Assembly: GCA_944324655.1 (NCBI GenBank)
Contig: CALUXF010000007.1
Coordinates: 880-64,879 of the forward strand
DNA from: Candidatus Avelusimicrobium aviculae
GTDB taxonomy: Bacteria; Elusimicrobiota; Elusimicrobia; Elusimicrobiales; Elusimicrobiaceae
Length of the DNA: 64,000 nt
Direction of reading: 5' to 3'
Shown: in pieces, positions 4,813-52,222 of the stretch
Numbering within the stretch: position 1 is the first letter of the stretch
Layout: each line of letters opens with the position of its first letter
The notes under the pieces: model-generated
Database searches by the model: none
What the model was told of the DNA's origin: nothing
The model's input: only the letters and a program-made list of their open reading frames with translations
Position numbers and translations under genes: made by a program

Positions 4813-5061
4813 AAATTTTATTTTATCATTTAGCCCGCTTAAAAGAAATAGCCTAAAAAGGGAAACCCCCCTGGCAGGGTTTGGGACCAGAGGGGTTTGG
4901 GGGATTAAATGAAAATTTATTCTCTTTCTATATTATTAAAATATAACTTTTGTTCGTTTTTCAACAGGGCCATTGGACCCAAAATCAAAAATATTTTGTG
5001 CCTAGAAGCTTTTGGGCCTTTTGTTGTATAATTTGTTAGGACCTAATAAAAGGGGGAAAAT

Positions 5062-9196: not shown

Positions 9197-10172
9197 TTTT
9201 CACTACTTCGGCCAGTTCTCCGGTAACGTCTTCCAGTGCTTTGCCGGTTACTTTAAAGCCGGAGGCGCGGGCATGGCCCCCGCCGCCAAATTTTTGGGCT
9301 ATTTGGCTTACGTCTACCGCGTTGCGCGCGCGCAGGTTTACGGAAACTTTATCATCTTCTTCTTTAATAAGGGCGGAAACTTCCACCCCGGGTATCATGG
9401 TGGGCTGGCTGACTATCCCCTGTGTTTGGGCCGGGGTGGCGCCCAAAGCCTCAAAATCGCGCTTAGTGAGCACAATTTGGCTGTATTTGTTGTCAAAACG
9501 CAGTTCCATTTTTTCTAAAGCGCGGCCCAAGAGTTTTAAGTCTATGTAGGGCTTGGTAAAGTAAATGACTTGGTTGATTTGCGCGATATCCGCCCCCAAA
9601 GCCACCAAGGCGGACGCCACGCGCAGCGCCTCCGCGCTGGTGTTGCTGTGCAGAAAGCGGCCGGTGTCCGTTTCCAGCCCGGTATAGAGGCAGGTGGCCT
9701 CGTCCGGCGTGGGGAGAAGGCCGTCCTCACTGTTTTCAAAAAGTTGGAAAATAATTTCTGCCGTAGAGCTGGCGGAAGAATCTATATAATTAATATGACC
9801 GTATTCATCGCTGATTAAATGGTGGTCTATATTAATAATGGTTTTTGCGTTTTTAAGTACGTTTTCCAAGTCTCCGCCGCGGGTGCGGTCGGAACATTCC
9901 AGCAAAATCACGGTGTCAAATTTGGGGTTTGCCGGCAGTTTGTTTACGTGTATGTTTTGCAAACCGGGCAGAAATTGCAAATCATTGCCAATGGCGGGGG
10001 TGGCGTAGGCGTAAGACTTTTTACCCAAGCGGCTGAGCAAAGAAACCATGGTTAATGTGCAGCCCAGGGAGTCCCCGTCCGGGTTTTGATGCCCGGCAAT
10101 AAAAAAACTTTTGCCGTTTTTTAAGGCTTGCCAAATAGAGGCAAAGATGGTTTCTCTAGTTTTCTGCTTCAT
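9174..10172 (-). CDS. nrnA: DHH/DHHA1 phosphoesterase (NrnA-like nanoRNase/pAp phosphatase)
   Basis: HQNPDGDSLG, NIDHH, DTGRF, GGGGHARASG; conserved position between rbfA and truB. Confidence 0.9.
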   Translation of the reverse strand: MKQKTRETIFASIWQALKNGKSFFIAGHQNPDGDSLGCTLTMVSLLSRLGKKSYAYATPAIGNDLQFLPGLQNIHVNKLPANPKFDTVILLECSDRTRGGDLENVLKNAKTIINIDHHLISDEYGHINYIDSSASSTAEIIFQLFENSEDGLLPTPDEATCLYTGLETDTGRFLHSNTSAEALRVASALVALGADIAQINQVIYFTKPYIDLKLLGRALEKMELRFDNKYSQIVLTKRDFEALGATPAQTQGIVSQPTMIPGVEVSALIKEEDDKVSVNLRARNAVDVSQIAQKFGGGGHARASGFKVTGKALEDVTGELAEVVKNVVKKIR

Positions 10173-10524
10173 GTTTTTCCTTCTCTATAATTTGGAAAAT
10201 AGATTCCACCCGGGAGGCTTGCTCCGGGGTGTTGTCGTATTCAAAGCTAAAAGAAGGAATGCGTTTTAAATGCAGGCGGTGGCGGAGTAAAGCCCCAATT
10301 TCTTTGCGCAGCAAAGATAACGCTTCCTGGGTTTTCTTTTTATCTTCCGGGCTGCCAAATACGGAAAAATACACTTTGGCGGAAGATAAATCTTTAGATA
10401 CATGCACCGAGGTAATCGTCACAAAACCGCCCAATTCCCCGTCGGCGGACATTTTGGTTACATGGGTGTTTATTTCTTCTAAAAAAAGGGTTTCCAAGCG
10501 TTTTATTCTGTCTATCATAAACAT
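10156..10524 (-). CDS. rbfA: Ribosome-binding factor A
   Basis: VTITSVHVSKDLSSAKVYFS, LHLKRIPSFSFEYD. Confidence 0.95.
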   Translation of the reverse strand: MFMIDRIKRLETLFLEEINTHVTKMSADGELGGFVTITSVHVSKDLSSAKVYFSVFGSPEDKKKTQEALSLLRKEIGALLRHRLHLKRIPSFSFEYDNTPEQASRVESIFQIIEKEKHEAEN

Positions 10525-10553
10525 ATTATACCATTTTGAAAGCTGGGTTTTTG

Positions 10554-11911
10554 TTGTAAAAAAAGATGGCTTTTACAAGAAACTAAAGTATATTATTTAT
10601 AGAAGGTTTTGGGGCTGCCCAAAAACTTTCCGCTTGAGGATGCGGCATACATGATTTATAGTAAGTGGTGGTGCTGATCATTGGTATTTTGGCCAGTGTG
10701 GCGTTGCTCCAGTATACCAAAGCGGTGGAAAAATCCCGCTCTACGGAGGCTATTTCTTTGCTGAGCAATTTGGCGAAAGCAGAGGAGATTTACGCCTTAG
10801 CCGCCAATTCATACACCAATGATATGAACGCATTGGATATCCAAATGCCTAATATCACGGGTACGGGGCTGGTAAGCTTTATGCAGACCAACTCTTTTAC
10901 CATTACCATTCGCAACGCGAACGGGGCGGATGTTTTTACTGCTACGGCTACGCGCGGCGGCTCTTCCAATGCGGGTTCCGCTAATTATAACTACACCATT
11001 GTGGCGCGTATGGCGCGTGGGCAGTCTTTGCAGATGTGGTGCCAACCTGGTACGGTTACCACTGTAGCTGCCTCGGCCCCGGCCTTAACCGGTACTTCTG
11101 AGGCTGTCAGAATGTGCAAGAGTATTGCCAATGGTGACGCCAACGGTTATATTATGGGGGGAAGAAAATTAGACGTTGTGGCCTAATGTACTGTTACCGG
11201 TCCAATTCTTAGATTATTGTGCTATAAATAGTGCTATTAAGAAATGTGCATCATTTTTTGTAATAAAAGCTTGTTTTTTATAATAAACTAAAGTATATTA
11301 TTTATAGAAGGTTTTGGGCCTGCCTAAAAACCTTCCGCTTGAGGATGCGGCATGCATGATTTTATAATAGGAGAGTATTTATGAACAAGAAAGGTTTTAC
11401 CTTAATTGAGTTGCTGGTGGTGGTGCTGATCATTGGTATTTTGGCCAGTGTGGCGTTGCCCCAGTATACCAAAGCGGTGGAAAAATCCCGCTCTACGGAG
11501 GCTATTTCTTTGCTGAGCAATTTGGCGAAAGCGCAGGAAATATATGCCTTAGCCACCAATTCATACACCAATGATATGAACGCATTGGATATCCAAATGC
11601 CTAATATCACGGGAACAGGGGTGGTAAGCTCTATGCAGACCAACTCTTTTACCATTACCATTCGCAACGCGAACGGGGCGGATGTTTTTCAGGCTACGGC
11701 TACGCGCGGCGGCTCTTCCAATGCGGGTTCCGCTAATTATAACTACACCATTGTGGCGCGTATGGCGCGTGGGCAGTCTTTGCAGATGTGGTGCCAACCT
11801 GGTACGGTTACCACTGTAGCTGCCTCGGCCCCGGCTTTAACCGGTACTTCTGAATCTGTCAGAATGTGCAAGAGTATTGCCAATGGTAATGCCAACGGCT
11901 CTATTATGGAG
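10554..11911 (+). repeat. Tandem duplication of pilin promoter, leader and gene (about 10554-11157 vs 11258-11911)
   Basis: Both copies share aactaaagtatattatttatagaaggttttggg...ccgcttgaggatgcggcat upstream and near-identical coding sequence. Confidence 0.95.
10665..11186 (+). pseudogene. 5'-truncated (silent) type IV pilin copy
   Basis: About 94% identical in protein to the 11381 pilin over the shared region, but about 46 bp carrying the RBS, ATG and MNKKGFTLIELL are missing; the -10 TATAAT of copy 2 reads TACAAG here; reading frame otherwise open. Confidence 0.8.
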
Positions 11912-11914
11912 TAA
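11381..11914 (+). CDS. Type IV pilin (PilE-like, Elusimicrobium type)
   Basis: Class III signal KKG/FTLIELLVVVLIIGILASVAL with E5, C-terminal Cys pair, AGGAGAG RBS. Confidence 0.95.
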   Translation: MNKKGFTLIELLVVVLIIGILASVALPQYTKAVEKSRSTEAISLLSNLAKAQEIYALATNSYTNDMNALDIQMPNITGTGVVSSMQTNSFTITIRNANGADVFQATATRGGSSNAGSANYNYTIVARMARGQSLQMWCQPGTVTTVAASAPALTGTSESVRMCKSIANGNANGSIME

Positions 11915-11926
11915 GTTTTTACGGAT

Positions 11927-11956
11927 AAAAAACCCCGCCTGATGGCGGGGTTTTTT
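11927..11956 (+). terminator. Terminator after the pilin
   Basis: AAAAAACCCCGCC-TGAT-GGCGGGGTTTTTT. Confidence 0.9.
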
Positions 11957-12044
11957 ATGTCTATGCGGTGAGGCGCAGTGTAGGCAAGAACAAAAACACC
12001 ACCCCAATTTGGGGCGGTGTTTTTTGTTAGTTTAAATGCTTGGT

Positions 12045-12416
12045 TTAGTTTTGCCCGGGGGCTTTTTTGGTGTCTCCCATTTTGGCTAAATGCATATCTA
12101 CATCCAAAGAATACACCAAACAGCCTTTGGGTTGTTCTTTTAGCAGGGGAAGCAGTTCCCTGTCCATAAAACCGTTTATTTTATCGGCTTCGTCTACCAT
12201 TTCCATTACCACCGGGTATTTTTCCACCAGTTCAAAATAACGGGTGTTGCGTAAAACGCTGCTGGGGCCATAGCCCAGCATGGCGCGGCTGGCGGTAACG
12301 CCGGCTAAGCCAAAATCTTTGGCTTTTTTGGCGATGATTTCATACAGCAGTACATGGTTTATACGGTCCGTACTGCTTAAATATACTTTTAAAAGCTTCA
12401 TTTTTTTGCTTTCCAT
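12045..12416 (-). CDS. DUF190 family (PII-like) protein
   Basis: LLKVYLSSTD...LYEII...GLAGVTASRAMLGYG...PVVMEMVD pattern. Confidence 0.8.
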   Translation of the reverse strand: MESKKMKLLKVYLSSTDRINHVLLYEIIAKKAKDFGLAGVTASRAMLGYGPSSVLRNTRYFELVEKYPVVMEMVDEADKINGFMDRELLPLLKEQPKGCLVYSLDVDMHLAKMGDTKKAPGQN

Positions 12417-12548: not shown

Positions 12549-14882
12549 TTACATTTTTATACGTCTTGTAATATTATCTTTGCGGAAACATTCTATGGTG
12601 TCTCCTTCCAAAACGCCTTTAAAGCCGGCTACCAAAATACCGCATTCGTAGCCTTTTTCCACTTCTTTTACATCGTCTTTAAAGCGTTTTAAGCCTTCAA
12701 TGCGCCCGCGGCCCACTTCTTCGGCCCCGCGTTTAATGCGCACTTCATAACCGCGCACCATTTTGCCGCTGTCCACCAAAGAACCGGAAATCAAGCCGGA
12801 GCTTAATTTCATCACTTTTTTAATGGTGGCGGAGCCGATTAAGGTTTCCACCACGTCTGGTTCCAGCAAGCCTTCCATAGCGGCTTTGATGTCTTCCAGC
12901 AGTTCAAAGATAATGGTGTAGAGGCGTATTTCTATGCCTTCGTGTTCGGCTTCCGCCTGGGCTTTGTTTTCAACGTCCACATGGAAACCGATTACCACCG
13001 CGTTGCTGGCTTTGGCAAGCAGAATGTCAGACTCGTTAATATTTCCGGGGGCGGAAAGGATAATATCCAGTTCCACCTCGTCGGACGGAATACGCAACAG
13101 GGCATCTTTAATGGCTTCAATGGAGCCTTGCACGTCAGCTTTCAGGATGATTTGCAGTTTTTTCACGCTGTTTCCGTCCCCGTCTTTGCGCAAGTTCATT
13201 AAAGAAACCTGTTTGCGGTGGGCTTGAGAATCTTCTTTCTGCGCCAGCTTGCGTTTTTCTGCCGCGTAGCGGGCTTCTTTTTCGCTTTCCATGATGTAGA
13301 GCGTATCGCCCACCTGCGGGGGTTCCCCGTTGATGCCTAAAATTTCCGCCGGCACGCTGGGGCCTATTTTTTGGTAGCGCTGGGAATTTTCGTCAATCAG
13401 CGCGCGTATGCGCCCATAGCTGGTGCCCACGATAAACGGGTCGCCCACTTTCATGGTGCCTTTTTGCACCAATACGGTGGCTACCACGCCGCGTTTATTG
13501 TCGCGCTTGGATTCCAAAATAACGCCTACGCCCAGGCGGTCCGGGTTGGCTTTTAATTCCATAATTTCCGCTTGGAGGGAAATCATTTCCAAGAGTTTAT
13601 CAATATTGATTTTTTTCTTGGCGGAGATTTCTACAAAAATGGTATTGCCCTGCCATTCTTCCGGCACTAAACCGCGGGAAGCCAAGTCTTGCTTTACGCG
13701 GTCCGGGTTGGCGCCGGGGAGATCTATTTTATTAATAGCCACAATAATGGGGGCTCCGGCGGCTTTGGCGTGCTCCATGGCTTCTATGGTCTGGGGCATA
13801 ATGCCGTCCGTGGCGGAAACCACTAATACCACAATATCCGTAGCTTGCGCCCCGCGTGCGCGCATGGCGGTGAAAGCCTCGTGCCCGGGGGTGTCTAAAA
13901 ACGTAAGGGAACCGCGGGGGGTTTTTACCCGGTACGCGCCGATATGTTGGGTAATGGCGCCGGCCTCTCCTTCCGCAACGTGGGAGCTGCGTATCGCGTC
14001 CAACAGGCTGGTTTTGCCGTGGTCCACGTGCCCCATAATGGTAATTACCGGGCTGCGGGGTTTTAAAGAGGCAGGGTCGTCCTGCTGTTCCATGATGTGC
14101 AGGGTTTCCTGGTCCAAATCTTCTTCCGCCATATCGGCTTCAAAGCCGCATTCGCTCAAGATAAGCTCAATCATGTCTTTTTCAAGACGCTGGTTGATGG
14201 TGGCGAACACGCCCAGGCCCATTAATTTTTTGATGAAATCATTAATTTTGAAATTCATCTTTTCGGCCAGTTCTTTCACCGTGGGGGTGCCCACGATGCG
14301 GATTTTTTTGGAATCCTTTACCGGGGCCGCTTCCTGCTGGGGTTTTACATGGCCGTGGCGGTCCAAATGGGCCGGCTGAGCCTGCGGCTGTGCGGGACGC
14401 GGCGCGGGTTGCTGAGCCGGTGCCGGTTTGGGAGCCGGCTGTGGTTGGGCTTGTTGCACAGCGGGGCGCGGTTCCGCGGCCGGTTTGGCGGCTTGGGGCG
14501 CGTTTTGCTGCGGGGCAGGCGGAACGACGGGTTCCGGCTGCGGCGCGGGCTTAGCGGGCTGCGGGGCCGGTTGTTCCACGGGTTGTTTTTCAACCGGTTT
14601 AACTTCTTGCTGTACCGGTTGGGCCGCTTCCGGCGCTTTAGCGGGAAGCGGCTCTTTTTTGTGCGCCGCGCGGGTGGAAGCTTTTTTGGTTGTTTTGGGC
14701 TTCTCCTGCGTTGTTTTTTTAGCCGTGGTTTTGCGCGCGGCCGGTTTTTTGGCGGTTTTCGGTTTATCTTCCGCCGGTTTTTTTGCGGCTGTTTTTTTGG
14801 CGGCCGGTTTTTTTGCTGCCGCTTTTTTAGCCGGGGAGGTTTTTTCGTCTTCCGCCTTAGTTGGCTTCTTCGCTGTGGTCAT
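12549..14882 (-). CDS. infB: Translation initiation factor IF-2 with a Lys/Ala- and Pro/Gln-rich N-terminus
   Basis: [43 protein letters not shown]. Confidence 0.98.
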
Positions 14883-19547: not shown

Positions 19548-21269
19548 TTATTTTTTAATGATTTCCGGCAGTTTTTCGGCGGCTTCGGCCAGGTTCCAGC
19601 GCACAGCTTCTTTGTCGGTGCGTTTTTTGTATTCGCACTGGCCGTCTTTTACGGTGCGGCTGCTTACCACCAGGCGGTGGGGAATGCCGATGAGGTCCGC
19701 GTCTTTAAATTTAATGCCGGCGCGTTCGTCGCGGTCGTCCATTAAGACGGATATGCCTTTGGCTTCCAGCGCGGCGGAAATTTCGTCCGCGTGTTTTTTA
19801 ACGTCCGGGTTGGAGTCATAATCAATGGCTATCAGGCACACGTCAAACGGGGCAATGGGTTCCGGCCAGATAATGCCGTTGTCGTCGTGGGATTGTTCTA
19901 TGGCGGCGGCCACCACGCGGCTTACCCCAATGCCGTAGCAACCCATAATCATCGGCTGGGCTTTTTGGTTTTCGTCCAAATAGGTGGCGCCCATAGCGTC
20001 GGAATATTTGGTGCCCAGTTTAAATACGTGGCCCACTTCTATCCCGCGTGTAAACTGGAAGGGTTTGCCACAGCGGGGGCACAAATCCCCGGCGGAAGCT
20101 ACTTTTAAATCCGCGTATACGTCTACCTGAATATCGCGCAGGGGGGTAACGTTTAAGGTGTGTACGTCTTTTTCGTTCCCGCCGGATACGCCGTTTACTA
20201 TGCCTTTTACGTAATTATCGGCGTAAATCATAATTTCCGGGTGTTTTTCTTTGAGCCCCTGCGCCCCGGCGAAACCCACAAAAGAGCCTGTGACTTGGGT
20301 GTAGGTTTCTTCGTCCGCTTTTACCAGTTCCGTGCATTTAAGCAGGGAACGGAATTTAGGCTCGTTTAGTTCATGGTCCCCGCGCACCAAGGCCACCACG
20401 GGTTTTCCGTCCGCCATAAACAGTAAGAGCTTAATCAGCTTGCTGGTGGGTACGTGCAGCATGTTGGCCACGTCCTCAATGGTGTAGGCCTTGGGGGTGG
20501 GCACGTTTTGCATGGGTTTTAAATCGGCCTCGTTTAAGGGGGCGAATTCAGGGCATTTTACTTCGGCTTTTTCCGTATTGGCGGCATAACCGCAGGAACA
20601 ATCGGCAATGGCGTCTTCGCCGTTATCGGCCAGCACCATAAACTCGTGCGAAAAATTCCCGCCGATGGCGCCGGTGTCCGCTTCCACCGCTTTAAATTTA
20701 AACCCGCAGCGGGTAAATACGCGCTGGTAAGCGTTATACATGCGTTGGTACCAGTCGGAAGCGTCCGCGTCCGTGGCGCAGAAAGAATAGGCGTCTTTCA
20801 TATAAAATTCCCGGGCGCGCATCACGCCAAAACGGGGGCGTATTTCGTCGCGGAATTTAGTGCCAAACTGATACAGGCATTTGGGCAGCTGTTTGTAAGA
20901 AGAAATGTCTTTTCTTACTAAATCGGTAATTACTTCTTCGGCGGTGGGGGCTACGCAGAATTCTCCGCCTTTGCGGTCTTTAATTTTTAATAACTGGTCC
21001 CCAAAGTGGGCCCAGCGGCCGGTTTCTTCCCACAGTTCTTTGGGCTGGATAACGGGCAGCCACAATTCGCACGCGCCGGCGCGGTCCATCTCTTCGCGTA
21101 TGATTTGCTCCACCTTTTTAAGCACTTTCATGCCCAGCGGCAGCCATTCATACAGCCCGCTGGCCAGCTTGCGGATAAGCCCCGCGCGTATCATGAGCTT
21201 GGCGGAAAGATTGTCCGCGTCTTTTGGCGCTTCTTTTAGCGTAGGTACGTAGTAATTAGATAATTTCAT
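19548..21269 (-). CDS. proS: Proline--tRNA ligase (with editing domain)
   Basis: FRDEIRPRFGVMRAREFYMKDAYSF, GIEVGHVFKLG, MGCYGIGVSR. Confidence 0.98.
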   Translation of the reverse strand: MKLSNYYVPTLKEAPKDADNLSAKLMIRAGLIRKLASGLYEWLPLGMKVLKKVEQIIREEMDRAGACELWLPVIQPKELWEETGRWAHFGDQLLKIKDRKGGEFCVAPTAEEVITDLVRKDISSYKQLPKCLYQFGTKFRDEIRPRFGVMRAREFYMKDAYSFCATDADASDWYQRMYNAYQRVFTRCGFKFKAVEADTGAIGGNFSHEFMVLADNGEDAIADCSCGYAANTEKAEVKCPEFAPLNEADLKPMQNVPTPKAYTIEDVANMLHVPTSKLIKLLLFMADGKPVVALVRGDHELNEPKFRSLLKCTELVKADEETYTQVTGSFVGFAGAQGLKEKHPEIMIYADNYVKGIVNGVSGGNEKDVHTLNVTPLRDIQVDVYADLKVASAGDLCPRCGKPFQFTRGIEVGHVFKLGTKYSDAMGATYLDENQKAQPMIMGCYGIGVSRVVAAAIEQSHDDNGIIWPEPIAPFDVCLIAIDYDSNPDVKKHADEISAALEAKGISVLMDDRDERAGIKFKDADLIGIPHRLVVSSRTVKDGQCEYKKRTDKEAVRWNLAEAAEKLPEIIKK

Positions 21270-21805
21270 TTGGTGTTATCCTCTGAATTAGGCACAGGAA
21301 GGCCTATTTTTTCTAATGGTAAGTATTCAAAATAATAAAAACAGTGTACAGAATGAATGTAATCTAACACATCTTTATATTCAGGTTTTCTAAACCAGTT
21401 ACTTAAAATATAGATATATTCAACATCAATATTTAATTGTGCCAATAATTTCTGATATTGTTTCTTTTTAAAATCACAAGTTTGCAGTTTTTCGTCAACG
21501 GAACCTGCAACCTGTTGGAATTTCACTTCTATAATATAAAGCGTATTTTTAATGATTACAAAAATGGAATCATCTGGAAGCAGACGTTTAGAAATGATAT
21601 TTTTCCAGTTTATTCCGTTTTCTTCCAAGAACTTGTAAAACGCAAATTTTTTATATGTCCGTGCTACTTCCTGTTCTTGAAAATAGACTATATTGTCTTT
21701 AACTTGGTAGTCTTTTTGTTTGGACAGAAAAGTCAATATATCAGTCTTGCCTTCAAATGCAAGTCCTGTTTTCGTGTTGGCTCCGCCAATGCCACCTGTT
21801 TTCAT
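21266..21805 (-). CDS. Putative type II restriction endonuclease, PD-(D/E)XK fold
   Basis: LLPDDSIF...IIEVKFQ motif; coupled to a DNA methylase; AT-rich. Confidence 0.75.
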   Translation of the reverse strand: MKTGGIGGANTKTGLAFEGKTDILTFLSKQKDYQVKDNIVYFQEQEVARTYKKFAFYKFLEENGINWKNIISKRLLPDDSIFVIIKNTLYIIEVKFQQVAGSVDEKLQTCDFKKKQYQKLLAQLNIDVEYIYILSNWFRKPEYKDVLDYIHSVHCFYYFEYLPLEKIGLPVPNSEDNTK

Positions 21806-22602
21806 TTTTCGTTTCCTCTGTTTAGTAATGTTTCATACCGTTTAACTGATAAATCTAAATATTTTTTTTCTGTATCAATGCCGATAAATCTACGTTTATA
21901 AAATACAGCTGCTAAACCAGTAGTGGAACTGCCAGTAAAAGGATCTAATATTAAATCCTTAGGATTGGTGCTGGCCAGAACTATTCTTCTTAATAAATCA
22001 AAAGGTTTCTGAGTCGGATGTTTTCCGAAAGCTTTTTCTGTTGCTTTTGGCGTATTAATGGCCCATACAGAACGCATCTGTAAGTTAGGTTTTTTTAAAA
22101 AATCTTCCGGCCAGTTCCCATTTTTCATGGAATCATAATTGAATGTATGTTTAGCTTTTTTGTCTTTTCTGGCCCAAATCAGTGTTTCATGGCTGGCTGT
22201 AAAAAAGCGGCAACTTAAGTTAGGAGAAGCATTGGGTTTAAACCAAGCGATATCATTTAAAATATGATAGCCGTTTCTTTGCAAGGCATATCCACACTGA
22301 TAAATAGAGTGATAAGTACCGCTGATCCAAATAGTTCCTTCAGGTCTTAAAATACGTTTACATGAAGCTATCCAGTCATTTTGAAATTTAAAATCTTCAT
22401 CAAAGCCGTTACTTTTATCCCATGCCCCTTTATTTACACACACTCTACGTCCGGATTGTACAGAAAATCCACCATTGGATAACATGTAAGGAGGATCTGC
22501 AAAAATCATGTCAAAACTGTTGTCTGGAAACTGTTGCATAATTTCCAAGCAGTTACCTTGATACAGAGTAAAGTTTTTATTATGATAAAACGGTTTTGTC
22601 AT
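21802..22602 (-). CDS. DNA amino-methyltransferase, beta class (DpnA-like)
   Basis: MIFADPPY...LSNGG, NLSCRFFT, HPTQKP, LDPFTGSSTT, FIGID: motif order and text recall DpnA. Confidence 0.9.
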   Translation of the reverse strand: MTKPFYHNKNFTLYQGNCLEIMQQFPDNSFDMIFADPPYMLSNGGFSVQSGRRVCVNKGAWDKSNGFDEDFKFQNDWIASCKRILRPEGTIWISGTYHSIYQCGYALQRNGYHILNDIAWFKPNASPNLSCRFFTASHETLIWARKDKKAKHTFNYDSMKNGNWPEDFLKKPNLQMRSVWAINTPKATEKAFGKHPTQKPFDLLRRIVLASTNPKDLILDPFTGSSTTGLAAVFYKRRFIGIDTEKKYLDLSVKRYETLLNRGNEK

Positions 22603-50881: not shown

Positions 50882-52222
50882 ATGGATAAAAAAACCACCT
50901 CTAAAATAACCGCCCCTATCGGGAAGATACAGGTCAAAGTACAAGAATCTTTGCTCCGTAAACCCTTGGTATGGGTGGGTATTTTGGCGGTGGTTCCTTT
51001 TGTAATAATGTTTGCTTTTACATTTAAAAGCGGGTTTACTCCTTCTGACGGAAACAGAAAGATAGAAAAAATCATCGTATCTAAAACCCCTATGGAAATG
51101 GCCGAAGAGGCCACCCAGGCTTTGCAGCGTAATGACGTGCAAAGTTTTTTTGACATTATAGAGAAAGCCAAAGATTATAATTTGGTCAACAGCAAGGGGG
51201 ACTCTATGCTCCTGGTAGCTGTTTCTTTAGGAAATTATGATGCGGTGCTTCGCTTATTGTCTTTAGGGGCGGATGTAAATAAGCAAAATTCTTACACGCG
51301 CGACACGCCTGTTCTGCGCAGTTTATATACCAATCATGATGATATTACCCGCTTGTTAGTGGCGTCTGACGCTAATTTGAATTTAGAAAACAACTACCGT
51401 CATTCACCCATATTTGTAGCCGTGGAACGCCAAAAAGGCGAATTTGTGGATTTGTTTATTACTTCCGGCGCGCAGGCGGGTATTAATTCCGATAATCTGT
51501 TCCGCTGGGTAACCAAACGCAATTTAATAGGCATATTGGCTATGTTAAAAGGCGGTATTGACCCCAATGTAAAAAATGAACAGGGCAATACCCCGCTTAT
51601 TATCGCGGCTTCTTTGGGGGATGTGGAGGCCGTGCGCAATTTACTGGCCTATCGGGCTGACCCCAATGCCGCAAATAAAGACGGGAACACCGCCTTAATT
51701 TATGCCGCCCGTTATAACCACCCGCAAATTATTTATGAATTGATGCGCCCCTACTCATTGGTGGCTCCGGTAGACGTGAATATTCAAAACAAACAGGGGC
51801 AAACGGCTTTGTATTGGGCGGCTTCCCGTGGGTATGAGGAAGCGGTAAAGCGTTTGCTGGCCGCTAATACCAACCGTGACCTGAAGGATAAAGACGGCTT
51901 AACCGCGCGTGACATAGCGCAAAAAAAAGGCCGCCGCAACATTGTGGCTTTGTTTGATATGGATCCTACGGCATTAAAGAATATGGTGACAGAAATGGAT
52001 AATGCCCGTATTGCCGAACGAAAACGCCAGGAAGAAGCCGCCAAAGCCAAAGAGCTTGCTGAAAAACAGAAGCAAGAGGCCGCCCAGGCCCAAGCCCAAA
52101 AGCAGGCCGGCTATATTGGCCGCCGGCGCCGCCAGAAAAAGAAGGAAATGGTGCAGCCCACTTCCGCGCTGGACCAGCAAACCCCTACCCGCAATGCTTT
52201 TTCCCGTCGCAACCGTCAATAA
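50882..52222 (+). CDS. Membrane-anchored ankyrin-repeat protein
   Basis: One TM helix, about seven ankyrin repeats (GNTPLIIAA, GNTALIYAA, GQTALYWAA), coiled-coil and basic C-tail. Confidence 0.92.
   Translation: MDKKTTSKITAPIGKIQVKVQESLLRKPLVWVGILAVVPFVIMFAFTFKSGFTPSDGNRKIEKIIVSKTPMEMAEEATQALQRNDVQSFFDIIEKAKDYNLVNSKGDSMLLVAVSLGNYDAVLRLLSLGADVNKQNSYTRDTPVLRSLYTNHDDITRLLVASDANLNLENNYRHSPIFVAVERQKGEFVDLFITSGAQAGINSDNLFRWVTKRNLIGILAMLKGGIDPNVKNEQGNTPLIIAASLGDVEAVRNLLAYRADPNAANKDGNTALIYAARYNHPQIIYELMRPYSLVAPVDVNIQNKQGQTALYWAASRGYEEAVKRLLAANTNRDLKDKDGLTARDIAQKKGRRNIVALFDMDPTALKNMVTEMDNARIAERKRQEEAAKAKELAEKQKQEAAQAQAQKQAGYIGRRRRQKKKEMVQPTSALDQQTPTRNAFSRRNRQ

What the first reader, a model, noticed from the sequence alone, without database searches (positions are those of the whole stretch)
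10554..11914. Silent plus expressed type IV pilin pair with mosaic divergence (pilS/pilE-like antigenic variation candidate)
Seen: the upstream copy has lost the RBS, start codon and prepilin leader (about 46 bp), and its -10 reads TACAAG instead of TATAAT, yet its frame is intact. Differences are clustered: six in 27 nt near 11531, four in 21 nt near 11611, ACT/CAG at 11690, and several near the C-terminal Cys region. These patches flank a perfectly identical 143-nt tract (11693-11835), and many changes inside the patches are synonymous. Established: Neisseria pilS cassettes lack promoter and N-terminus and donate patches to pilE by gene conversion; Elusimicrobium minutum carries dozens of pilE-like genes. 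Inference: the patchy pattern fits segmental gene conversion among a large pilin repertoire, which to my knowledge is not described for this phylum. An ordinary decaying duplicate is the alternative.
Basis: partly seen in the sequence, partly recalled or inferred. Interest (0 to 1): 0.7.

Follow-up and report, generated by a model that had tools for sequence, protein, structure and literature searches.

The report
Decaying leaderless pilin duplicate beside live gene
A chicken-gut Elusimicrobiaceae bacterium carries a working type IV pilin gene with a broken, leaderless duplicate just upstream; the patchy differences between them fit ordinary gene conversion and decay, not a Neisseria-style antigenic-variation system.

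Summary
Copy 2 (11381-11914) is a complete prepilin gene with a terminator, and it is transcribed in gut metatranscriptomes. Copy 1 (10665-11186) is 95.6% identical but has several lesions:
- a 47-bp deletion removes the ribosome-binding site, ATG, leader and the first mature residues;
- the promoter core is scrambled;
- it carries P22L;
- it has lost its stop codon and terminator.

The differences are clustered (P about 0.01-0.03).

The pilS/pilE reading is not supported:
- There is only one silent copy.
- All homologues of at least 70% identity that I looked up are single-copy orthologues at the same rbfA-pilin-DUF190 site.
- Copy 1 is missing from some strains of the same species and from all sister lineages.
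- It is frameshifted in another strain, seen in two independent assemblies.
- It evolves 2-3 times faster than copy 2.
- There is no G4 motif nearby.
- It cannot account for 15 of the 19 changes in the most divergent expressed allele.

Comparison between strains suggests that the 143-nt identical tract was copied from the expressed gene into the dead copy. That is homogenisation, the opposite direction to antigenic variation. Most "mosaic" contigs cannot be trusted, because assemblers pop bubbles.

Verdict: a young, strain-polymorphic pilin pseudogene undergoing concerted evolution. Interest is low to moderate.

The parts
10549..10657 (+). U1: degenerate copy of the pilin promoter and 5' UTR. 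It is homologous to 11254-11362. The -35 equivalent reads TGGCTT (10567-72) instead of TTGTTT. TACAAG (10574-79) replaces TATAAT. The hairpin copy lies at 10602-10630.
   Evidence: family D2, 85% identity. Searches show that the sister lineage P0123 and the single-copy strains carry the U2-type core, so the 6 changes in 16 nt of U1 are derived.
10658..10664 (+). Deletion junction. 47 bp are missing relative to about 11363-11409 of copy 2 (second TATAAT, Shine-Dalgarno sequence, ATG, leader MNKKG and the first mature residues including E5). In-frame stops TAG (10659) and TAA (10662) sit here.
   Evidence: The junction is identical in all two-copy contigs and occurs as its own 31-mer unitig in runs X1, X2 and X3.
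10665..11186 (+). Copy 1: leaderless pilin pseudogene (mechanical ORF of 173 aa starting at GTG). It is homologous to copy 2 as far as 11160. It carries P22L (10708), S84F, Q104T, N170D and loss of the stop codon.
   Evidence: (ComP_DUS domain only, no N_methyl).
11161..11253 (+). Unique 93-nt spacer between the copies. It holds 9 read-through codons and the TAA at 11184-86. There is no terminator. It is not homologous to the 3' flank of copy 2, and its origin is unknown.
   Evidence: found only in two-copy loci. (absent from JGI metagenome contigs).
11254..11380 (+). U2: intact promoter and 5' UTR of the expressed gene. Elements: -35 TTGTTT 11272-77, -10 TATATT 11294-99, a 9-bp-stem hairpin 11307-11335, and the Shine-Dalgarno AGGAG 11369-73.
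   Evidence: (I1). The elements are conserved in orthologues. The promoter assignment is an inference.
11381..11914 (+). Copy 2: complete type IVa prepilin of 177 aa. It has the leader MNKKG|FTLIELL, E5, P22 and the cysteines C138 and C163.
   Evidence: N_methyl 6.9e-9, ComP_DUS 1.1e-10. (matches to solved PilA/PilE structures). (copy-2-specific contigs in four metatranscriptomes).
11925..11958 (+). Intrinsic terminator of copy 2: a perfect 15-bp stem followed by a T-run.
   Evidence: I11. The Rfam hits are only terminator look-alikes.

Best explanation
Copy 2 is the functional pilin gene of a chicken-gut Elusimicrobiaceae species. It is probably a major pilin, it is syntenic across the genus, and it is transcribed. 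Copy 1 is a young, strain-polymorphic partial tandem duplicate that has been inactivated at least three times: its promoter core is scrambled, a 47-bp deletion removed the ribosome-binding site, start codon and leader, and it has lost its stop codon and terminator. It is drifting as a pseudogene.

The two copies lie 0.75 kb apart and are about 95% identical, so ordinary RecA-type homologous recombination occasionally copies short tracts between them (concerted evolution). In the lineage of this window, a central tract of at least 143 nt in copy 1 was overwritten by copy 2 sequence. The divergent patches are the unconverted remainder: old allele states and copy-1-specific mutations, plus a few newer changes in copy 2.

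Shown: the anatomy, the presence/absence polymorphism, the frameshifted allele, the faster rate of copy 1, and transcription of copy 2. Inferred: that copy 1 is silent, that conversion is the cause of the patchiness, and the direction of conversion.
For: **Ancestral state**
- Orthologues at 89%, 72% and 70% identity, and the near-conspecific P0123 lineage, are all single-copy between rbfA and DUF190.
- Three contigs of the same species and run X13 have one copy. They show a real novel junction in which the rbfA flank abuts a U2-type promoter.

**Decay of copy 1**
- Polarising the differences with outgroups gives 7 nonsynonymous to 3 synonymous changes derived in copy 1. These include P22L and the stop loss. 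Copy 2 has 2 to 3.
- Copy 1 is further than copy 2 from every outgroup: 63 versus 50, 87 versus 81, and 97 versus 89 differences.
- Tajima-type counts worked out by hand from the table are 17 versus 4 with the closest outgroup (chi-square 8.0). With the other two outgroups they are 14 versus 8 and 14 versus 6, which is not significant or borderline.
- The promoter core has 6 changes in 16 nt.
- L106 and L107 carry a 1-nt frameshift at 10806. They come from two studies and two assemblers, and the remnant protein is on 4 contigs.
- Other contigs show further indels.

**Conversion**
- The differences are clustered.
- In strains L004, L106 and L009, and in run X6, copy 1 carries 4-7 extra differences inside the tract that is identical in the window. 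Two of them (10958 A, 11014 A) are shared with outgroup alleles. This makes the window's version the converted one.
- All four combinations of the 10979-88 cluster and the 11014-18 cluster exist, only 25 nt apart. In each case one state equals the copy 2 state.

**Expression**
- Four metatranscriptome runs hold contigs with copy-2-specific letters.
Against: - Short-read assemblies and Logan contigs pop bubbles. Three runs of one study (X1, X2, X3) give three different mosaics of the repeat body, at depths between 1x and 2x. The apparently homogenised copy 1 of L002 and L005, and part of the haplotype table, may therefore be artefacts.
- The four-gamete argument depends on the L104/P0135 haplotype.
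- The relative-rate excess is significant only with the closest outgroup, which may itself recombine with this lineage.
- Silence of copy 1 is not shown. The metatranscriptome samples may hold single-copy strains.
- The 93-nt spacer means this is not a clean tandem duplication, and its origin is unexplained.
- Copy-1-type letters do occur in some expressed alleles (X13; GAC at codon 170 in P0124; A159 in P0001). Transfer from copy 1 into copy 2 is therefore not excluded.
Confidence: 0.7

Rival explanations
1. Minimal pilS/pilE-like system. Copy 1 is a maintained silent cassette that donates patches to the expressed pilin by non-reciprocal gene conversion. This would create surface variants that help evade host immunity or phages in the chicken gut.
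For: - The architecture matches: a 5'-truncated, promoter-damaged copy sits next to an expressed gene.
- Copy-1-type letters are found in expressed or single-copy alleles. X13 has them at 11614-31, 11690-92, 11836 and 11854-55. P0124 has GAC at codon 170. P0001 has A159.
- The differences are clustered.
Against: - There is only one cassette, with 11 amino-acid differences.
- The cassette is absent from some strains and from all sister lineages, and it is frameshifted in others.
- No G4 motif lies within about 6 kb.
- Only one residue differs between the two cysteines.
- 15 of the 19 differences in the most divergent expressed allele (L106 copy 2) are absent from that strain's own copy 1. Its 9-change cluster at 11797-11824 resembles a sister-species allele instead.
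- The shared copy-1-type letters can also be old allelic polymorphism.
Confidence: 0.1
2. There is no exchange between the copies at all. The patchiness comes from chance, multi-nucleotide mutations and uneven constraint along the gene. The mosaic alleles seen between strains are assembly chimeras.
For: - The clustering P values are only 0.01-0.03.
- Several patches combine independent changes on both lineages, patch 2 for example.
- X1, X2 and X3 demonstrate bubble-popped mosaics.
- L018 is a graph-cycle contig and L019 is a chimeric contig.
Against: - The 143-nt tract is not intrinsically conserved, since orthologues differ a great deal there.
- Real 31-mers show two versions of copy 1 in that tract: ACT with 10958 C in X3, and ACT with 10958 A plus 6 more changes in X6.
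- The recombinant combinations lie only 25 nt apart, which is shorter than the final assembly k-mers.
Confidence: 0.12
3. Relic of an allele replacement. Copy 1 is the old resident allele. DNA carrying a newer allele entered by natural transformation. It integrated with one homologous end and one illegitimate end, the 93-nt spacer being donor or filler DNA. The old gene was left truncated and silenced.
For: - Copy 1 keeps ancestral-type residues (E52, A159, Y174, and D/E129 in L004-type alleles) that are shared with P0123, P0003 and P0008.
- The spacer is not homologous to the normal 3' flank.
- U1 keeps the ancestral G at 10552.
Against: - Copy 1 and copy 2 are each other's closest relatives: 23 differences between them, against at least 50 to any other lineage.
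- The spacer has no match anywhere that I searched.
- Single-copy strains carry the copy-2-type allele with the normal flanks on both sides.
Confidence: 0.08

Closest known systems
Neisseria gonorrhoeae / N. meningitidis pilE-pilS pilin antigenic variation
   Same: There is an expressed full-length type IV pilin gene plus a copy that lacks a working promoter, ribosome-binding site, start codon and N-terminal coding sequence. The sequence differences come in patches separated by identical tracts, which can serve as recombination anchors.
   Different: - Neisseria has many pilS copies in several loci. Here there is one.
- The Neisseria system depends on a G4-forming sequence and an sRNA upstream of pilE (PMC3547852, PMC13463697). 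No G4 motif is present here.
- Neisseria variation is concentrated in the loop between the cysteines (knowledge of the system, not tested here). Here only one residue differs there.
- pilS copies are conserved donors, and transfer runs from pilS into pilE without changing pilS. Here the copy is strain-polymorphic, frameshifted in one strain, and appears to be the recipient.
Concerted evolution of tandem or duplicated bacterial genes by RecA-dependent gene conversion (general knowledge, for example tuf gene pairs and rRNA operons)
   Same: Two nearby copies in direct orientation at about 95% identity. Long identical tracts are interrupted by short divergent patches. The degree of identity varies between strains.
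   Different: One partner here is non-functional, so conversion only delays its decay. It does not maintain two working genes.
Tandem pilin paralogue pairs such as Legionella pneumophila PilA1/PilA2 (PMC13170364)
   Same: Two related type IV pilin genes lie side by side.
   Different: In Legionella both are complete genes predicted to be major pilins, and the pair is present in nearly all species. Here the upstream copy lacks the leader and start codon and is present in only some strains.

Membership tests
Type IVa pilin (copy 2) | Class III signal peptide with G|F cleavage site, E5, and a hydrophobic N-terminal helix | tested here: met
   The N-terminus reads MNKKG|FTLIELLVVVLIIGILA. Pfam N_methyl E = 6.9e-9. 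The model has a helix over residues 8-57.
Type IVa pilin (copy 2) | Globular beta-sheet head with a C-terminal disulfide pair, and similarity to solved pilins | tested here: met
   C138 and C163 are present. ComP_DUS E = 1.1e-10. phmmer matches Thermus PilA 6xxd (4.5e-11), Pseudomonas and Neisseria PilE. The fold search was inconclusive: the model pLDDT is 67 and the best hit, N. meningitidis pilus 8p3b, has E = 0.046.
pilE/pilS-type antigenic variation system | An expressed full-length pilin gene with its own promoter | tested here: met
   Copy 2 is complete. Contigs with copy-2-specific letters occur in four metatranscriptomes.
pilE/pilS-type antigenic variation system | Silent copy lacking promoter, ribosome-binding site and N-terminal coding region | tested here: met
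   The 47-bp deletion and the mutated promoter core are shown. Actual silence was not measured.
pilE/pilS-type antigenic variation system | A repertoire of several silent cassettes | tested here: not met
   tblastn finds no other pilin in the 64-kb window. Among the top 120 database relatives, the only ones without a leader are alleles of copy 1 itself. The whole genome was not available.
pilE/pilS-type antigenic variation system | Non-reciprocal transfer from the silent copy into the expressed copy, generating variants of the expressed gene | tested here: inconclusive
   The inferred direction is copy 2 into copy 1. Copy 1 cannot explain 15 of the 19 changes in allele P0124. A few letters shared between copy 1 and expressed alleles are ambiguous. 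No phased reads were available.
pilE/pilS-type antigenic variation system | A cis-acting G-quadruplex-forming sequence upstream of the expressed gene | tested here: not met
   The only motif with four runs of three or more G in the window is at 4877-4903, about 6.5 kb away.
pilE/pilS-type antigenic variation system | The silent locus is conserved among strains | tested here: not met
   It is absent from L001, L008, L010 and X13 and from all sister lineages. It is frameshifted in L106 and L107.
Pseudogene (decaying duplicate) | Inactivating lesions, relaxed constraint, and presence/absence polymorphism | tested here: met
   Lesions are shown. The rate excess and the 7:3 versus 2:3 nonsynonymous-to-synonymous counts are; the numbers are small. 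The polymorphism is shown.
Concerted evolution by gene conversion | Identical tracts longer than chance, and recombinant haplotypes among strains | tested here: inconclusive
   Clustering has P = 0.01-0.03. The four-gamete test fails at sites 25 nt apart. There is k-mer support for two versions of the tract. However, assembly bubble-popping was demonstrated.

The most novel reading that the evidence does not exclude
A one-cassette, pilS-like reservoir in a non-pathogenic gut Elusimicrobiaceae species. The leaderless copy stores an older pilin allele and occasionally exchanges short patches with the expressed gene in both directions. This would give lineages that carry it a modest, heritable way to vary a surface antigen or phage receptor. 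It would be an early evolutionary stage of the kind of system that Neisseria has elaborated.
Probability: 0.1. Interest if true: 0.6.

Novelty: new member of a known kind. Interest (0 to 1): 0.3.

Why it matters
It matters mainly as a caution and as a small case study.

A silent-plus-expressed pilin pair with mosaic divergence looks like antigenic variation when only one genome is read. Comparison across strains and sister species shows a recent, dispensable, decaying duplicate that is being homogenised by its live neighbour.

The case also shows that mosaics of near-identical repeats in short-read metagenome assemblies and Logan contigs can be produced by bubble popping. They should not be read as recombinants without phased reads.

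If the minority reading were true, it would extend cassette-based pilin variation to a new phylum and to a commensal. It would also show an incipient stage of such a system.

Tried and rejected
- **Genome collection scan.** A scan of genome contigs with the pilin did not return the source species; the best hit was 52% identical. I could not count pilin paralogues genome-wide.
- **Long reads.** No Nanopore or PacBio runs were available.
- **Raw reads.** The only raw-read run, X21, placed 12 reads on the locus. That is too few to phase.
- **Logan contigs of X1-X3.** I first read them as homogenised copies at double depth. I rejected this once three runs of the same study gave three different mosaics.
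- **L018 / P0133.** This is a leader-bearing gene with the copy 1 tail on a 766-nt contig that begins and ends in the spacer. I treated it as a graph cycle, although a real third copy cannot be excluded.
- **L019 / P0136.** Here the pilin is fused to unrelated glycosidase and AraC-type genes, and I treated it as a chimeric contig.
- **Rfam.** Nothing reached a gathering score. The hits are only terminator look-alikes.
- **Spacer searches.** I searched for the spacer in the window, in all fetched loci and in JGI metagenomes. It has no other home.
- **Fold search.** It was not significant because the model is mediocre (pLDDT 67).
- **Intact frame of copy 1.** I rejected this as evidence of selection. 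By my own rough estimate, with roughly 13-18 substitutions on its branch, escaping a stop codon is expected more often than not.
- **Literature.** I found no report of pilin cassette variation in Elusimicrobiota.
Full report
**1. What is in the sequence**

Between rbfA (10156-10524, minus strand) and a DUF190 gene (12045-12416, minus strand) lie two pilin-related units in direct orientation.

*Copy 2 (11381-11914)* encodes a 177-aa prepilin.
- The leader and N-terminus read MNKKG|FTLIELL, with E5, P22 and two cysteines (C138, C163).
- Pfam gives N_methyl (6.9e-9) and ComP_DUS (1.1e-10).
- The sequence matches solved type IVa pilins, namely Thermus PilA 6xxd at 4.5e-11, Pseudomonas PilA and Neisseria PilE.
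- It has a Shine-Dalgarno AGGAG at 11369-73 and a perfect 15-bp terminator stem at 11925-58.

*Copy 1* aligns to copy 2 in two blocks with different offsets.
- 10549-10657 matches 11254-11362, and 10665-11160 matches 11417-11912.
- This means 47 bp are missing. The gap removes the ribosome-binding site, the ATG, the leader and the first mature residues.
- Two in-frame stops precede the remaining GTG ORF (10665-11186, 173 aa).
- After 11160 the homology ends. Copy 1 has no native stop or terminator and reads 9 codons into a unique 93-nt spacer (11161-11253).

*The differences between the copies.*
- The coding overlap has 22 differences in 495 nt.
Nine codons differ synonymously and eleven non-synonymously.
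- The clustering is modestly non-random, with P between 0.003 and 0.03 depending on the statistic.

*The promoter.* The elements conserved in orthologues are TTGTTT (11272-77), a 16-nt spacer, then TATATT (11294-99). In copy 1 the core carries 6 changes in 16 nt, and comparison with single-copy strains and a sister lineage shows these changes are derived.

**2. Whose gene it is**

- Relatives are Elusimicrobiaceae pilins; the names given by sources include Candidatus Avelusimicrobium.
- The runs that hold the locus are chicken and other bird gut metagenomes.
- The rest of the window is housekeeping: infB, nusA, rimP, truB, ribF, isoprenoid and sugar-nucleotide genes, and tRNA synthetases. None of the window ORFs I scanned is pilus machinery.

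**3. Comparison with relatives**

*Presence and absence of copy 1.*
- The exact copy 2 protein is on at least 22 contigs.
- Of the ten I fetched, six have both copies and L007 starts inside copy 1. Three (L001, L008, L010) have one copy with rbfA 152 nt upstream.
- The single-copy junction is a novel sequence that also appears in a k=31 Logan contig (L010) and in run X13, so it is not a collapsed assembly.
- Homologues at 89% (P0002, P0003), 72% (P0010) and 70% (P0008) identity are all single genes in the same rbfA-pilin-DUF190 slot. So is the near-conspecific P0123 lineage, whose infB is 96% identical.
- Hence a single copy is ancestral. The duplicate arose once, since all copies share the same deletion and spacer, and it is polymorphic within one species. 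The looked-up relatives down to 70% identity are orthologues, so no close paralogue is known that could have donated the patches.

*Rate and kind of change.*
- Polarising the 22-23 differences with outgroups shows that copy 1 keeps some old states, such as E52 and Y174. In L004-type alleles it also keeps an acidic residue at 129.
- It also carries its own derived changes: P22L, T59A, S84F, Q104T (three adjacent bases), N170D, E177G and the stop loss. That is 7 nonsynonymous to 3 synonymous, against 2 to 3 for copy 2.
- Copy 1 is further than copy 2 from every outgroup (63 versus 50, 87 versus 81, 97 versus 89 differences).
- Unique-change counts taken by hand from that table are 17 versus 4 with the closest outgroup (chi-square 8.0). 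With the other two they are 14 versus 8 and 14 versus 6.

*Further damage in other strains.*
- L106 and L107 come from different studies and assemblers. Both have a 1-nt deletion at 10806 that frameshifts copy 1, and the remnant protein is on four contigs.
- L105 has a 33-nt duplication and a 33-nt deletion in copy 1. L104 has a further 42-nt deletion.

Together these are the marks of a pseudogene.

**4. Exchange between the copies**

*Evidence for conversion.*
- In L004, L106, L107, L009 and run X6, copy 1 carries 4-7 extra differences (10958, 10979-80, 10988, 11014-18). These fall inside the tract that is identical between the copies in the window.
- Two of these states are shared with outgroup alleles.
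- Real 31-mers support both versions next to the copy-1-specific ACT at 10938-40 (X3 versus X6).
- All four combinations of the 10979-88 and 11014-18 clusters occur, 25 nt apart. In each case one state equals the copy 2 state.
- The simplest reading is short-tract conversion from copy 2 into copy 1 that erases copy-1-specific changes. The window's 143-nt identical tract would be one such event.

*The opposite direction is not shown.*
- The most divergent expressed allele (P0124, the copy 2 of L106) differs from the window's copy 2 at 19 sites. Fifteen of them are absent from that strain's own copy 1.
- Its 9-change cluster at 11797-11824 resembles a sister-species allele.
- This points to recombination between strains as the source of variation in the expressed gene.
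- Copy-1-type letters in X13, P0001 and P0124 could be old polymorphism.

**5. A strong caveat**

- Runs X1, X2 and X3 belong to one study. Each gives a single body contig at 1.3-1.9 times the flank depth, and each has a different mixture of copy 1 and copy 2 patches. That is bubble popping.
- L018 is a graph cycle and L019 is a chimeric contig.
- The "homogenised" copy 1 of L002 and L005 may therefore be an artefact.
- Only linkages shorter than the assembly k-mer, or features reproduced by independent assemblers, are relied on here.
- No long reads exist for this locus, and the one raw-read run is too shallow.

**6. Expression**

Four metatranscriptomes contain contigs with copy-2-specific letters. 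In X25 the contig spans 11433-11921. None covers the copy 1 junction or the spacer. Copy 2 is therefore transcribed in vivo. Silence of copy 1 is plausible from its lesions but unproven.

**7. Comparison with pilE/pilS**

- What is shared is the architecture.
- Not met: a repertoire of cassettes, a G4 element, variation focused between the cysteines, and conservation of the silent locus.
- The direction of transfer is inconclusive, and the evidence leans towards the opposite of what the model needs.
- The locus is therefore not a member of that kind of system. At most it could behave as a weak one-cassette analogue, to which I give a probability of about 0.1.

**8. Verdict**

This is an ordinary but well-documented case: a young, strain-polymorphic, multiply inactivated pilin duplicate that is decaying and being partly homogenised by its functional neighbour. 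The origin of the 93-nt spacer is unexplained. Interest 0.3; it is a new member of a known kind.

Noticed in passing
window 11307-11335 (and 10602-10630): There is a hairpin with a 9-bp stem (GAAGGTTTT...AAAACCTTC) in the presumed 5' UTR of the pilin, also present with one mismatch in copy 1. It has no Rfam match. It could be a regulatory or stabilising element of the pilin mRNA.
   Followed up: partly
L104 2379-3690 (equivalent to window 10525-12050): In one scaffold both copies are damaged. Copy 1 has an extra 42-nt deletion. Copy 2 has a 45-nt in-frame deletion of the leader and N-terminal helix (MNN|GILAS), and its 3' third is replaced by unrelated sequence. Both deletions end at the same TGGTATTTTGG just after a GATC site. 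Either the pilus has really been lost in that strain or this is an assembly artefact.
   Followed up: partly
L008, L009 and L019 downstream of the terminator (equivalent to window about 11958); loose ends in X3 and X8: In some strains the sequence right after the pilin terminator changes to TATAACTACTGCTCACAATAAACCCCGGGCGTAAGCC... and the contigs end soon after. This suggests a strain-specific insertion, possibly a repeat or a mobile element, between the pilin and DUF190. In a sister species (L101) an IS200/IS605-type Y1 transposase lies next to DUF190.
   Followed up: no
window 11387-11446; loose ends in runs X5, X6 and X8: Other pilin genes in the same metagenomes share 31 nt or more of identical N-terminal coding sequence, but have different upstream sequence (for example ...TAACTTAGGAGGAAGTTATG) and different bodies. 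So k-mer graphs join unrelated pilin genes at this point.
   Followed up: no
window 21266-22602 (minus strand): An N6/N4 DNA methyltransferase (PF01555, E = 6e-55) overlaps by 4 bp a 179-aa ORF with no Pfam match. This may be a small restriction-modification pair. I note it because restriction-modification systems were recently tied to Neisseria pilin variation (PMC13321361).
   Followed up: no
window 50882-52222 (plus strand): A 446-aa protein with several ankyrin repeats sits between RNase III and an aspartyl/asparaginyl-type tRNA synthetase. Ankyrin repeats are eukaryote-like and often mark host-interaction proteins in symbionts.
   Followed up: no
window 4877-4903 (plus strand): This is the only canonical G-quadruplex motif in the window (GGGTTTGGGACCAGAGGGGTTTGGGGG). 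It lies in the intergenic region upstream of a TPR protein gene, about 6.5 kb from the pilin.
   Followed up: no
window 12549-14882 (minus strand, infB): The N-terminal third of IF-2 is a long low-complexity region rich in Pro, Ala, Lys and Gln. Its length varies between related contigs (777, 776, 771 and 671 aa).
   Followed up: no
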